Part shown: positions 9,109 through 50,774 of the stretch, piece by piece
Position numbering within the stretch: the first letter of the stretch is position 1
Layout of the letters: each line of letters begins with the position of its first letter
Assembly: GCA_028704015.1 (NCBI GenBank)
Contig: JAQVLT010000008.1
Location: 1-51,941 of the forward strand
DNA from: Patescibacteria group bacterium
GTDB taxonomy: Bacteria; Patescibacteriota; Patescibacteriia; Patescibacteriales; JAQVLT01
DNA length: 51,941 bases
Direction: 5' to 3'
Made by a program: the position numbers and the translations under genes
The notes under the pieces: generated by a model
The model's input: the letters and a program-made list of their open reading frames with translations, nothing else
Databases searched by the model: none
What the model was told of the DNA's origin: nothing

Positions 9109-10002
9109 ATGATTTACGCAAATATTTTGGAATTAATCGGCAATACGCCGATGGTAAAGATTAATAAAATTAGCCCTAATCAAAAGGTAAATATTTTTGC
9201 CAAACTGGAAGGATTTAATCCGGGCGGAAGCATTAAAGATCGTATTGCTTTAAAAATGATTGAACAGGCGGAGAAAGAGGGGAGGCTAAATTCTTCTAAG
9301 ACAATAATCGAGCCAACATCCGGAAACACAGGCATTGCCTTGGCGATGATCGGCGCGGTGAAAGGTTATCAGGTAGAAATCGTGATGAGCGAGGCAGTGT
9401 CAATTGAGCGAAGAAAAATGATTGAGGCTTTTGGCGGGAAAATTATTCTCACCGATCCAACTAAAGGTACGGACGGCGCGATTATGAAAGCGCGCGAAAT
9501 GGTGAAAAACAATCCGGAAAAATATTTTATGCCGGACCAATTTTCCAATGAATATAATAAATTAGCGCATTATGAATATACGGCGCAAGAAATTTGGGAG
9601 CAAACTGAGGGTAAAATAGATTATTTTGTCTCGGCAATCGGCACTTCCGGGACGCTTATGGGCGTGGGAACTTATTTAAAAAGCAAAAATCCAAAAATTA
9701 AAATTATCAGTGCCGAACCAGTAAGGGGGCATTATATTCAAGGACTTAAAAATATGGAAGAAGCAATTGTTCCTGCGCTATATAATAAAGATTTATTGGA
9801 TGAAATAATTATGGTTGATACTGAAGAAACATTCGACATGGCGCGCCGAGTGACGCGCGAAGAGGGGATTTCGGTGGGCATGAGTTCGGGGGCCGCAATG
9901 CTTGCCGCTGTAAAATTAGCAGAGAAGATTGAAAGGGGAAGTATCGTGACAATTTTTCCGGATAGGGGAGAAAAGTATTTAAGTACGAAGCTATTCGCTT
10001 GA
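9109..10002 (+). CDS. cysK: Cysteine synthase (O-acetylserine sulfhydrylase, CysK/CysM family)
   Basis: NPGGSIKDR (PLP lysine), EPTSGNTG, GTSGTLMG, GMSSGA, FPDRGEKYLS. Strong SD AGGAGGT at 9091-9097. CysK versus CysM cannot be resolved by eye. Confidence 0.93.
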   Translation: MIYANILELIGNTPMVKINKISPNQKVNIFAKLEGFNPGGSIKDRIALKMIEQAEKEGRLNSSKTIIEPTSGNTGIALAMIGAVKGYQVEIVMSEAVSIERRKMIEAFGGKIILTDPTKGTDGAIMKAREMVKNNPEKYFMPDQFSNEYNKLAHYEYTAQEIWEQTEGKIDYFVSAIGTSGTLMGVGTYLKSKNPKIKIISAEPVRGHYIQGLKNMEEAIVPALYNKDLLDEIIMVDTEETFDMARRVTREEGISVGMSSGAAMLAAVKLAEKIERGSIVTIFPDRGEKYLSTKLFA

Positions 10003-34594: not shown

Positions 34595-34614
34595 CCTGCC
34601 TGCCGGCAGGCAGG
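34595..34614. repeat. Perfect 20-bp palindrome CCTGCCTGCCGGCAGGCAGG
   Basis: Self-complementary; related copies at 11147, 22923 and 39441. Confidence 0.9.
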
Positions 34615-39440: not shown

Positions 39441-39458
39441 CCTGCCTGCGCAGGCAGG
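39441..39458. repeat. Perfect 18-bp palindrome CCTGCCTGCGCAGGCAGG in the cupin leader
   Basis: Self-complementary; same family as 34595-34614. Confidence 0.85.
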
Positions 39459-48622: not shown

Positions 48623-49552
48623 ATGAATCAAACCGACAAAGACTTGCTAATATTTGAAAGGGGTTCTTTGATAACAAAAAAGAATCTGCTTGATATTATA
48701 CAGAAGTTTAGACATATAACACCAGCTGGTAGTCCAGTTCAGATGCGATGCTACGATATTACAAAAGCAATTGGTATTCACGACTGGGCTCCGTTTGAAG
48801 CAATTTTAAAAACTATGTCCGAAACTGGTGCTTTTTCATTTTCAATAACTGGCGGATCTGATTATGGCATGCCCTGGGGTGATGATTTAGCCACTTTCGT
48901 GTTATCAAAAAAATTTGATGATATTTATAGAAAAATTAGTGACAGATATCACGATGTGACAATACATATCGCGGAAGGCAAAGTAGCGGCTGATAAAGTA
49001 CGACAAGTCCAACCTATTTCAACTGAAAGTGAGTTGATTAAATTAGTTAAATCAAAAATTGAGGCAATTGACGAGGATTTGTTAAGGCCTGACGAACTAG
49101 AAAATATAAAACAAAAGATAGAAAATTTTTTAGACGAAAAGCTGCGGGGTGAAAGCCTACTTGCGCTCAGGTATAGGAAGTTTAGAGCTCAAACAAGGAC
49201 GCTGTGGAATGATTCGAACGGCTTCGCAACCAACGGGAAAGAATATATTAATCCATATTTTAATTTTTTTGAACAATATATATCTGAAAAAAAAATCAGA
49301 CAGAGGCTTGCTGATGAGGATTTGTGGGTTGAATCAGTGACGCAAGGCGATGAACAACATATTATGATTGGTAAACGCGACAACGATAGTGGTGACAAGG
49401 TGCATATAGTTATGGGGAAAACTGGAGAAATAAGAATTGACGGTAAAGATAAAGCTCCCGTAGAAGTACTTAGAAAAGCAGAATCCATATTAACAACAGC
49501 AGACGGAAAAACAATAAAAACAACCCTAGAATTTTTTAAAAATCAGAACTAA
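48623..49552 (+). CDS. Orphan hypothetical protein
   Basis: Clean 309-aa ORF; no family recognised. Confidence 0.7.
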   Translation: MNQTDKDLLIFERGSLITKKNLLDIIQKFRHITPAGSPVQMRCYDITKAIGIHDWAPFEAILKTMSETGAFSFSITGGSDYGMPWGDDLATFVLSKKFDDIYRKISDRYHDVTIHIAEGKVAADKVRQVQPISTESELIKLVKSKIEAIDEDLLRPDELENIKQKIENFLDEKLRGESLLALRYRKFRAQTRTLWNDSNGFATNGKEYINPYFNFFEQYISEKKIRQRLADEDLWVESVTQGDEQHIMIGKRDNDSGDKVHIVMGKTGEIRIDGKDKAPVEVLRKAESILTTADGKTIKTTLEFFKNQN

Positions 49553-49682
49553 ACGCAAAATACACAGCGTGCATAGCGAAATAAATGGTAGCGAACAATA
49601 ATAGTCCTGCCCCGCAGTATTTAGTTTTTTTATATCTCTCTCGATCCTAATTACAGGAGAAATAAATAATTTTTAGAAAAAT

Positions 49683-50336
49683 ATGCAATTTAAAAATCAT
49701 AAACAATACAGATATCAAGAATACGATTATTCTCAGGACGGAATGTATTTTATAACAATCTGCACAAATAATAAAGAAATATTTTTTGGTAATATAGTCG
49801 GCAAATATTTTAATGGGTATATTGATGGCGCGATTGTTCAAATATCGGAAATTGGCCAAATTGTGAATAAATATTGGCTAGAAATTCCCAAGCATTTTCC
49901 GAATGTTATTTTGGATGAATACATGATTATGCCAAACCACGTGCACGGAATTATACAAATAAAAAACAACAACGTAGGAACAGGGCAATGCCCTGTTCCC
50001 GTGCGTGGCAATGCGACCCAAACGGCGCAATACGCCATTACAAATGTATCGCCATCCGACAGAACAGGGCAATGCCCTGTTCCTACGCGGATTATGCGAA
50101 TATCAAAATTTGGTTCGGTTACGTCGAATTCAATTTCAACCATTGTTGGGTCGTTTAAATCAATTGTTACCAAAATCGTAAATAAACAATTTCCCGAATC
50201 AGGTTTTGTCTGGCAAGCGCGATTTTATGATCGAATAATCAGAAATGAAGAAGAATTGTATGGAATTAGACAATACATAATTAATAACCCATTCAAATGG
50301 CTGGTGGATCGCGATAATCCAAAACTATCAAAATAA
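49683..50336 (+). mobile_element. REP-associated tyrosine transposase (RAYT, Y1 HUH family)
   Basis: YDYSQDGMYFITICT, MPNHVHGII (HUH), WQARFYDRIIRNEEEL..IRQYIINNP (catalytic Tyr). Confidence 0.9.
49974..50086. repeat. Inverted GTAG-type REP doublet (REPIN-like) inside the RAYT ORF
   Basis: GTAG-gaacagggca-a-tgccctgttc (49974-49998) and gaacagggca-a-tgccctgttc-CTAC (50062-50086). Confidence 0.85.
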
Positions 50337-50337
50337 A

Positions 50338-50577
50338 ATGTACCACGTTTATATTTTAAAATGCGCTGATAAAACATTTTATACGGGAATTACGAGCGAT
50401 TTCGCACGGCGCGTAGAAGAACATAATTTTTCAAATCTTGGAGCGAAATATACCCGAGGTCGGCGGCCGGTGAAATTGGTGTATTCTCGCAAATTCAAGA
50501 ATAAATCCAAGGCACTCCAAGAAGAATATCGCATCAAACAATTAACGAGAATTGAAAAAATTAATTTGATAAAATAA
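50338..50577 (+). CDS. GIY-YIG nuclease (UPF0213-like)
   Basis: VYILKCAD.TFYTGIT..RRVEEH..GAKYTRGRRPVKLVY. Confidence 0.92.
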   Translation: MYHVYILKCADKTFYTGITSDFARRVEEHNFSNLGAKYTRGRRPVKLVYSRKFKNKSKALQEEYRIKQLTRIEKINLIK

Positions 50578-50582
50578 AATTT

Positions 50583-50774
50583 ATGGGCGGAACGAACAGG
50601 GAAAATATCAGGCAGGGAATTCGCGTTTCAATTGTTCAGAAACAAGATCAGCAAACCGGAGAATTAACCGAAGGGATTGTGGCGGATATTCTCACGAATT
50701 CTCCAACGCATCCGCACGGAATAAAAGTGCGGTTGGAAACCGGCGAAGTGGGACGCGTGCAAATTATTCATTAA
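50583..50774 (+). CDS. ywbE: YwbE family protein
   Basis: QKQDQQTGELTEGIVADILTNSPTHPHGIKVRLETGEVGRV. Confidence 0.9.
   Translation: MGGTNRENIRQGIRVSIVQKQDQQTGELTEGIVADILTNSPTHPHGIKVRLETGEVGRVQIIH

What the first reader, a model, noticed from the sequence alone, without database searches (positions are those of the whole stretch)
49974..50086. RAYT transposase carries its own REP doublet in frame, just after the HUH motif
Seen: GTAG plus a 21-bp hairpin and the same hairpin plus CTAC form an inverted doublet inside the ORF. They are read twice as TGQCPVP, about 7 codons after NHVHGII, and the frame and catalytic Tyr are intact. Known: RAYTs nick GTAG-type REPs, which normally flank the gene. 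I saw no flanking copies here. Inference: the enzyme's substrate lies within its own gene, allowing self-cleavage, autoregulation or excision of the insert.
Basis: partly seen in the sequence, partly recalled or inferred. Interest (0 to 1): 0.65.

Follow-up and report, generated by a model that had tools for sequence, protein, structure and literature searches.

The report
REP hairpin pair inside RAYT gene
A small DNA-cutting enzyme gene (a REP-associated tyrosine transposase) in a tiny-genome Patescibacteria bacterium carries two inverted copies of its likely DNA hairpin target in frame; this is real, but it was already described in 2018 as a hallmark of this enzyme subclass.

Summary
The ORF at 49683-50336 (+) is a Y1 HUH enzyme of the TnpAREP/RAYT type. 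Its HUH motif (H86, H88) and catalytic Tyr (Y198) are intact. Codons 98-135 are GTAG+hairpin (49974-49999), a 62-nt spacer, and hairpin+CTAC (50062-50086), read twice as TGQCPVP. The hairpin occurs three more times in the 1.08-Mb genome: two intergenic sites and one in frame in murG. None flanks the gene.

The arrangement is not new. Quentin et al. [quoted passage not shown] This protein fits all of these.

My tests extend that picture:
- 59 of 77 homologous genes from many phyla carry a stem of at least 9 bp at this site.
- Identical palindromes are read in two different frames, so the DNA is conserved, not the peptide.
- Hairpin codons are identical in homologues that share only 53-57% protein identity.
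- AlphaFold models the insert as a disordered loop.

The proposed functions (self-cleavage, autoregulation, excision) remain untested. Verdict: a new Patescibacteria member of a known kind, of modest interest.

The parts
49683..50336 (+). RAYT / TnpAREP subclass 2.4-type Y1 HUH enzyme gene, 217 aa
   Evidence: ORF. Pfam PF01797 matches at E 1.3e-6. NCBIfam NF047646 REP_Tyr_transpos scores 58 bits (cut-off 80, match split by the insert). Best Foldseek hit is 4ER8. Motifs NHVH / WQ / YIINNP fit the subclass 2.4 signature of PMC6006769.
49935..49946 (+). HUH motif, N85-H86-V87-H88
   Evidence: H86 and H88 are invariant in alignment A1. The motif aligns to the HMH of 4ER8.
49974..49999 (+). REP 1: GTAG foot plus 22-nt hairpin GAACAGGGCAATGCCCTGTTCC, read as V98-P106
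50000..50061 (+). 62-nt spacer between the two REPs, unique in the genome; holds a weak third hairpin (50020-50041) in 42-nt phase
   Evidence: the repeat finder family D1. blastn of the spacer against the genome finds only itself.
50062..50086 (+). REP 2 (inverted): hairpin GAACAGGGCAATGCCCTGTTCC plus CTAC foot, read as R127-T135
50274..50276 (+). Codon of the catalytic tyrosine Y198 (RQYIINNP)
   Evidence: Aligned to Y115 of E. coli TnpAREP 4ER8. At least 90% conserved in A1.

Best explanation
The element is a head-to-head pair of GTAG-tagged REP hairpins, with REPIN-like geometry. It sits in frame in the variable, disordered loop (about residues 98-139) that follows the HUH strand of a TnpAREP subclass 2.4 / RAYT group 4 enzyme.

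Shown here:
- The gene belongs to that subclass by motifs and fold.
- The hairpin is a DNA-level entity. Its codons are frozen, and identical palindromes are read in two frames in other homologues.
- The hairpin also exists as single 'double-foot' GTAG...CTAC REPs at three other sites in this genome.
- Homologues carry 0-6 copies at the same site, arranged as tandem hairpin-plus-spacer units.

Inferred:
- The hairpin is the ssDNA site that this enzyme recognises, through the GTAG guide plus the stem, as in E. coli, Stenotrophomonas and Marinomonas TnpAREP.
- REPs arrived and turn over there through the enzyme's own cleavage and strand transfer next to existing REPs, as in BIME clusters, and through tandem duplication and deletion.
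- The encoded peptide is a tolerated passenger in a surface loop.

Whether the embedded site also feeds back on the gene is open.
For: - Anatomy and statistics.
- Family: Pfam and NCBIfam; HUH and Tyr aligned to 4ER8; AlphaFold core pLDDT above 90 with 4ER8 as the top Foldseek hit.
- Same hairpin elsewhere in the genome: C15:199-227 (exact, intergenic), C7:26134-26162 (between rplU and convergent recR) and C21:11605-11633 (in frame in murG).
- 39 of 113 close homologues in which the motifs could be located (of the 120 listed) carry 1-6 TG[QH]CPV units at this site.
- DNA of three of them shows the identical stem with a variable central base.
- All 11 four-fold-degenerate hairpin codons are identical in all four genes, against 0 of 25 elsewhere (Fisher 1.7e-9).
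- 59 of 77 homologous genes from many phyla have a stem of at least 9 bp in the HUH-to-WQ segment. Density is 4.0 per kb there, against 0.27 per kb in the flanks.
- Identical palindromes are read in phase 0 or phase 1 in different genes, and never in the TAG phase.
- In same-order relatives the in-gene palindrome equals the REPs flanking that same paralogue.
- The insert has pLDDT below 50 and no secondary structure.
Against: - The genome holds only five sites of this hairpin, far fewer than classical REP families.
- None flanks the gene, so there is no REPtron here.
- No experiment has shown that any subclass 2.4 enzyme binds or cuts its REP. The published biochemistry covers groups 2 and 3 only (PMC8266576).
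- The protein scores below the NCBIfam curated cut-off.
- The same site is used across many phyla. In two large genomes a perfect palindrome in the gene is the only copy. A purely passive passenger does not easily explain either point.
Confidence: 0.7

Rival explanations
1. The in-gene hairpin is a selected functional site, not a passenger. It could act as a protected master copy that keeps enzyme and target co-inherited. Or the enzyme could bind its own gene's ssDNA or mRNA hairpin and so regulate its own expression.
For: - The site is the same across many phyla, and palindromes stay perfect although their interiors differ.
- In Algoriphagus iocasae (5.4 Mb) and a Saprospiraceae genome (6.3 Mb), the only copy within 3 mismatches is the one inside the gene.
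- Hairpin codons are frozen while the rest of the gene is saturated at synonymous sites.
- The doublet can form a very stable long hairpin (z = -8.1).
Against: - 18 of 77 homologous genes lack a stem of at least 9 bp, and several close homologues have no unit at all.
- Copy number ranges from 0 to 6.
- Frozen codons and perfect palindromes also follow from recent re-insertion or from horizontal transfer of gene plus REP.
- There are no expression or binding data.
Confidence: 0.2
2. The hairpins are not this enzyme's substrate. They are generic palindromic or terminator-like elements of this genome that land in any permissive loop, and the RAYT loop is simply one such place.
For: - The genome holds many other GC-rich palindrome families, several in frame in long ORFs.
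- The C7 copy looks like a bidirectional terminator, with A6 and T6 flanks.
- The murG loop hosts this hairpin here and a different palindrome in a relative.
Against: - The GTAG/CTAC feet are the RAYT signature.
- The same hairpin recurs specifically in RAYT homologues from independent assemblies, but in only 2 of 401 sampled Patescibacteria genomes overall.
- Paralogue-specific matches between in-gene and flanking REPs are seen in relatives.
Confidence: 0.07
3. The repeat encodes a functional peptide, for example a Cys-Pro motif for metal or protein binding, and the DNA palindrome is incidental.
For: TGQCPVP(T) recurs as a peptide in many homologues.
Against: - Identical palindromes are read in two different frames in other homologues, giving unrelated peptides.
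- Four-fold-degenerate codons are frozen.
- Copy number is variable.
- pLDDT is below 50 with no structure.
- The same DNA occurs in intergenic sites.
Confidence: 0.02
4. The doublet is a chance palindrome or an assembly artefact.
For: None found.
Against: - No matches are expected in shuffles.
- The fold z-score is -8.1.
- The same arrangement appears in dozens of independent assemblies.
Confidence: 0.01

Closest known systems
TnpAREP subclass 2.4 (Quentin, Siguier, Chandler, Fichant 2018, PMC6006769), equal to RAYT group 4 (Bertels et al. 2017, PMC5581495)
   Same: - The motifs NH[IFV]H, WQ and YIxNNP.
- A variable insertion after the HUH strand that is made of REPs and does not break the frame.
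- Double-foot GT[AG]G...C[TC]AC REPs.
- Low REP abundance.
- A scattered distribution over many phyla.
   Different: - The host is a Patescibacteria (CPR) bacterium with a 1.08-Mb genome, whereas the paper stresses Cyanobacteria and Bacteroidetes.
- No REP flanks this gene.
- The in-gene form is a spaced inverted doublet, while the three other genomic copies are fused double-foot singles.
Canonical REPtron: E. coli TnpAREP (YafM, PDB 4ER8) with REP/BIME; Stenotrophomonas and Marinomonas group 3 systems (PMC3479197, PMC8266576)
   Same: - The Y1 HUH fold, HUH motif and tyrosine.
- A GTAG tetranucleotide at the hairpin foot.
- REPs in inverted pairs.
   Different: - In those systems REPs are extragenic, flank the gene and number in the hundreds.
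- Here they lie inside the ORF and number five sites.
- The activity of this subclass is untested.
REPIN (Bertels and Rainey 2011, PMC3116915)
   Same: Two inverted REPs with a spacer of about 60 nt that can fold into one long hairpin.
   Different: REPINs are multi-copy units. This doublet with its spacer is unique in the genome, and it is translated.
Intragenic GTAG/CGTC REPs and Rickettsia palindromic elements (Di Nocera et al. 2013, PMC3733652)
   Same: Palindromic repeats inserted in frame in loops of functional proteins. Here murG carries one too.
   Different: The host gene here is the presumed mobilising enzyme itself. The elements are shorter than the longer Rickettsia RPE-1.

Membership tests
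Y1 HUH enzymes of the TnpAREP / RAYT type | HUH motif on a beta strand | tested here: met
   NHVH at residues 85-88. H86 and H88 are invariant in 50 homologues. The motif aligns to EHMH of 4ER8.
Y1 HUH enzymes of the TnpAREP / RAYT type | Single catalytic tyrosine in the C-terminal helix (YIxxNP) | tested here: met
   Y198 in RQYIINNP aligns to Y115 of 4ER8 and is at least 90% conserved.
Y1 HUH enzymes of the TnpAREP / RAYT type | TnpA/TnpAREP fold | tested here: met
   AlphaFold mean pLDDT is 79.7, with the core above 90. The Foldseek top hit is 4ER8_A (E 3.4e-5), followed by IS608 and ISDra2 TnpA.
Y1 HUH enzymes of the TnpAREP / RAYT type | Score above the curated NCBIfam NF047646 cut-off (80 bits) | tested here: not met
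   The score is 58 bits in two stretches, and the match is split by the 38-residue insert. Pfam PF01797 is above its cut-off (28.9 against 23).
Y1 HUH enzymes of the TnpAREP / RAYT type | Binds and cleaves single-stranded REP DNA | not testable with these tools
   This needs a cleavage and strand-transfer assay as in PMC8266576.
TnpAREP subclass 2.4 / RAYT group 4 | Signature NH[IFV]H, WQ, YIxNNP | tested here: met
   The protein has NHVH, WQ (177-178) and YIINNP (198-203). The signature is taken from Table 1 of PMC6006769.
TnpAREP subclass 2.4 / RAYT group 4 | Variable insertion after the HUH strand, made of in-frame REPs | tested here: met
   The HUH-to-WQ segment is 45-141 residues long in 113 homologues. 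REP hairpins occur there in 59 of 77 genes.
TnpAREP subclass 2.4 / RAYT group 4 | Associated double-foot REPs (GT[AG]G...C[TC]AC) | tested here: met
   C15:199-227 reads GTAGGAACAGGGCAATGCCCTGTTCCTAC. Diverged copies lie on C7 and C21.
TnpAREP subclass 2.4 / RAYT group 4 | REPs flanking the gene (REPtron) | tested here: not met
   There is no other copy in the 51.9-kb window. Flanking copies do occur in 28 of 77 homologous loci and in several same-order relatives.
REP / REPIN | Short GC-rich hairpin with a conserved GTAG at one foot | tested here: met
REP / REPIN | High copy number and extragenic location | tested here: not met
   There are five sites in 1.08 Mb. Three of them are inside ORFs: the RAYT gene (two) and murG (one).
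REP / REPIN | Inverted doublet replicated as a unit | tested here: not met
   The geometry fits, but the spacer and the whole doublet occur only once in the genome.

The most novel reading that the evidence does not exclude
In subclass 2.4 RAYTs the embedded GTAG...CTAC palindrome is not a tolerated hitch-hiker. It is a maintained cis-site of the gene, either a protected master copy or an autoregulatory binding site. This would explain three observations: it sits at one loop position across many phyla, it stays a perfect palindrome while its interior changes, and it persists as the only copy in some 5-6-Mb genomes.
Probability: 0.2. Interest if true: 0.6.

Novelty: new member of a known kind. 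Interest (0 to 1): 0.3.

Why it matters
On its own, this locus adds a Patescibacteria example to a published feature of RAYT group 4 / TnpAREP subclass 2.4.

The wider pattern bears on how REPs and their domesticated transposases stay together over long times. That pattern is an enzyme gene that physically contains its presumed recognition hairpin, sometimes as the only copy in the genome. It offers a simple, testable system for asking whether such enzymes act on, or are regulated through, their own gene.

The locus is also a reminder for annotation. Odd peptides such as TGQCPVPT, RDEALPRLY or VETLHATSL in these proteins are translated REPs, not domains.

Tried and rejected
2. Phylum-wide count of the exact 29-mer (up to 3 mismatches) in 401 Patescibacteria genomes: only this genome and one other matched. 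The hairpin is therefore clade-restricted, not a phylum-wide REP.
3. Close relatives: no genome of the same genus or family is held. The nearest are 'same order', where the gene is patchy (12 of 31) and at most 56% identical. An empty-site comparison at short distance was not possible.
4. Rfam: no RNA family matches 49400-50600, even at E up to 1.
5. Linkage with the GIY-YIG gene that starts 2 nt after the RAYT stop: not conserved in homologous loci, so rejected as part of the system.
6. I first suspected that the tyrosine in WQARFYD was the catalytic one and saw that it is often His in homologues. The 4ER8 alignment showed that the catalytic residue is Y198 instead.
7. Peptide-level function of TGQCPVP: rejected on the frame and codon evidence.

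Full report
**What is there.** The window holds an ORF at 49683-50336 (+) of 217 aa. Pfam assigns it to Y1_Tnp / IS200-like (PF01797, E 1.3e-6, above the gathering score). NCBIfam's best model is NF047646, 'REP-associated tyrosine transposase'. It scores 58 bits in two stretches, below the 80-bit cut-off, because the match is interrupted. A profile of 50 homologues hits only one relevant solved structure, E. coli TnpAREP (4ER8). Its HMH aligns to NHVH (residues 85-88), and its catalytic Y115 (VDYIYINP) aligns to Y198 (RQYIINNP). H86 and H88 are invariant and Y198 is at least 90% conserved. An AlphaFold model built on that alignment has a confident core (pLDDT above 90), and its best structural match is 4ER8, followed by IS608 and ISDra2 TnpA.

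**The repeat.** Codon 98 begins the sequence GTAG-GAACAGGGCAATGCCCTGTTCC (49974-49999). After 62 nt comes GAACAGGGCAATGCCCTGTTCC-TAC (50062-50086). The arms are 26 nt long and 96% complementary, and each is itself a 10-11-bp stem around one base. Both are read as TGQCPVP. A weaker hairpin at 50020-50041 sits in phase with a 42-nt period, so the insert looks like three hairpin-plus-spacer units with the middle one decayed. The motif occurs nowhere else in the window, and none is expected by chance. As ssDNA the region folds far better than shuffles (z = -8.1). The insert corresponds to the only internal low-confidence stretch of the model (residues 98-139, pLDDT below 50, no secondary structure).

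**Elsewhere in the genome.** The window is contig C3 of a 1.08-Mb, 27-contig genome with about 37-38% G+C. Its homologues are all Patescibacteria. The same hairpin occurs at three more places, each time as a fused 'double-foot' palindrome, GTAGG...CCTAC:
- C15:199-227 is an exact copy. It lies between the end of an hrcA-like gene and the start of a small gene.
- C7:26134-26162 has 2-3 mismatches. It lies between rplU and a convergent recR and is flanked by A6 and T6, like a bidirectional terminator.
- C21:11605-11633 has 3 mismatches. It lies in frame in a variable loop of murG.

The 62-nt spacer and the doublet as a whole are unique. However, five sites is a very small family.

**Homologues.** A search of the protein collection gave 467 relatives. 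The segment between HUH and the WQ motif varies from 45 to 141 residues. Among the 120 listed, the motifs could be located in 113, and 39 of these carry one to six TG[QH]CPV units at exactly this place. The closest, at 70% identity, has the same doublet with a shorter spacer. DNA of three relatives with 53-57% protein identity shows the identical stem GAACAGGGCA-N-TGCCCTGTTC in 2-5 copies. The central base may be any of the four. The copies are arranged as tandem duplications of hairpin plus a lineage-specific spacer, and none lies in the 3-kb flanks. Among columns with the same amino acid in all four genes, all 11 four-fold-degenerate codons inside hairpins are identical. None of 25 such codons outside is identical (Fisher 1.7e-9). 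The conserved object is DNA, not peptide.

**The wider family.** A scan of one genome per species returned 80 loci from Patescibacteria, Bacteroidota, Chloroflexota, Cyanobacteria, Planctomycetota, Nitrospirota, Desulfobacterota, Gammaproteobacteria and others.
- In 59 of 77 genes the HUH-to-WQ segment contains a perfect stem of at least 9 bp.
- It is usually a 28-nt palindrome, GTAG[GA]G[GA]C...G[CT]C[CT]CTAC, or a doublet of GTAG+hairpin A ... hairpin B+CTAC.
- Density is 4.0 per kb there, 0.61 per kb in the rest of the gene and 0.27 per kb in the flanks.
- Identical palindromes are translated in two phases in different genes. GTAGAGACGTTGCATGCAACGTCTCTAC gives VETLHATSL or RDVACNVST. GTAGGGGCACGGCATGCCGTGCCCCTAC gives VGARHAVPL or RGTACRAPT. 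The third phase would read TAG and is never used.
- In same-order relatives of the window's genome, each paralogue has its own palindrome, and the same palindrome often flanks that gene within a few hundred bases. This paralogue-specific pairing is the best available support for 'cognate site'.

**Already known.** Quentin, Siguier, Chandler and Fichant (2018, PMC6006769) define TnpAREP subclass 2.4, which equals RAYT group 4 of Bertels et al. 2017. The defining features are NH[IFV]H, WQ and YIxNNP, a mean length of 194 aa, and 'double foot' REPs. [quoted passage not shown] The window's protein fits this signature exactly. Di Nocera et al. 2013 (PMC3733652) had already catalogued GTAG REPs inside coding regions. 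Bertels et al. (PMC5581495) found only low-abundance repeats around group 4 genes, which matches the small family seen here. The paper was also in my own literature hits, and I read the passages myself.

**Mechanism.** Established biochemistry concerns groups 2 and 3. TnpAREP binds a folded single-stranded REP, needs or uses the GTAG as a guide-like element, and cleaves at CT (or CA) 5' or 3' of the hairpin through a covalent Tyr-5'P intermediate. It can also transfer strands (PMC8266576). By analogy, I infer that this enzyme recognises GTAG plus the GAACAGGGCA stem on either strand. I also infer that REPs accumulate next to each other, as in BIMEs, and that arrays then grow and shrink by tandem duplication and deletion or by enzyme-mediated recombination between neighbouring REPs. 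A fused double-foot REP is what a deletion between the two arms of the doublet would leave. Quentin et al. noted this, and this genome holds both forms. The peptide is a passenger in a disordered loop. None of these steps is shown for this subclass.

**What a passive model does not explain well.** The generic double-foot pattern gave 1 to 78 matches per strand in 12 genomes that carry homologues. In Algoriphagus iocasae (5.4 Mb) and a Saprospiraceae genome (6.3 Mb), the only copy within three mismatches is the one inside the gene. A perfect 14-bp-stem palindrome that survives alone, at the same loop in many phyla, suggests either recent transfer of gene plus REP or selection on the site itself. 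I give the second reading about 20%.

**Verdict.** This is a new (Patescibacteria) member of a known kind, with modest interest as a single locus. The functional claims (self-cleavage, autoregulation, excision) remain hypotheses.

Noticed in passing
own genome, contig C11:9371-10078 (outside the window): A second RAYT-type gene (HUH DHAH; NF047646 at 102.5 bits, above the cut-off) carries a different 34-nt perfect palindrome, ATTGAAGGCGGGCAAACGTTTGCCCGCCTTCAAT. It lies in frame between HUH and Tyr (9763-9796), and the same palindrome lies about 360 bp upstream (9373-9402). A GAAGGCG...CGCCTTC family of about 10 copies with varying interiors is spread over the genome.
   Followed up: partly
window 34595-34614 and 39441-39458; about 25 sites genome-wide: The palindrome CCTGCCTGC(CG)GCAGGCAGG (80% G+C in a 37% G+C genome) is the most abundant repeat of this genome. 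It is mostly intergenic, with 6 of 25 copies inside long ORFs. It also appears next to a homologous RAYT locus from another metagenome (L015:231-250) and in L107.
   Followed up: partly
own genome, e.g. C12:57407-57428, C15:47061-47082, C27:6631-6652: The palindrome CCCCTCTCCTAATTAGGAGAGGGG and its variants (21 copies) lie in frame inside long ORFs in 14 cases, read as PLLIRRG. A same-order relative has this peptide in the very murG loop where this genome has the GTAG hairpin (L109).
   Followed up: partly
own genome C6:107672-107700, C8:4395-4422, C12:39896-39923: Three double-foot GTAGAGACG...CGTCTCTAC palindromes all lie in frame in ORFs of 436-523 codons. Other subclass 2.4 homologues carry this type in-gene as RDEALPRLY or VETRH. 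This genome has no RAYT with that palindrome.
   Followed up: no
window 50338-50577 (+): A stand-alone 79-aa GIY-YIG nuclease-domain gene starts 2 nt after the RAYT stop codon. The adjacency is not conserved in homologous loci.
   Followed up: yes
window 48623-49552 (+): A 309-aa ORF directly upstream of the RAYT gene has no Pfam match at E up to 0.01.
   Followed up: no
loci L023, L027, L029, L030, L055, L069: The identical 28-nt palindrome GTAGGGGCACGGCATGCCGTGCCCCTAC sits in RAYT genes of Anaerolineales, Nitrosomonas, Chlorobiaceae and Dehalococcoidia. This suggests that gene plus REP moves between phyla, or that specificity is very strongly conserved.
   Followed up: no
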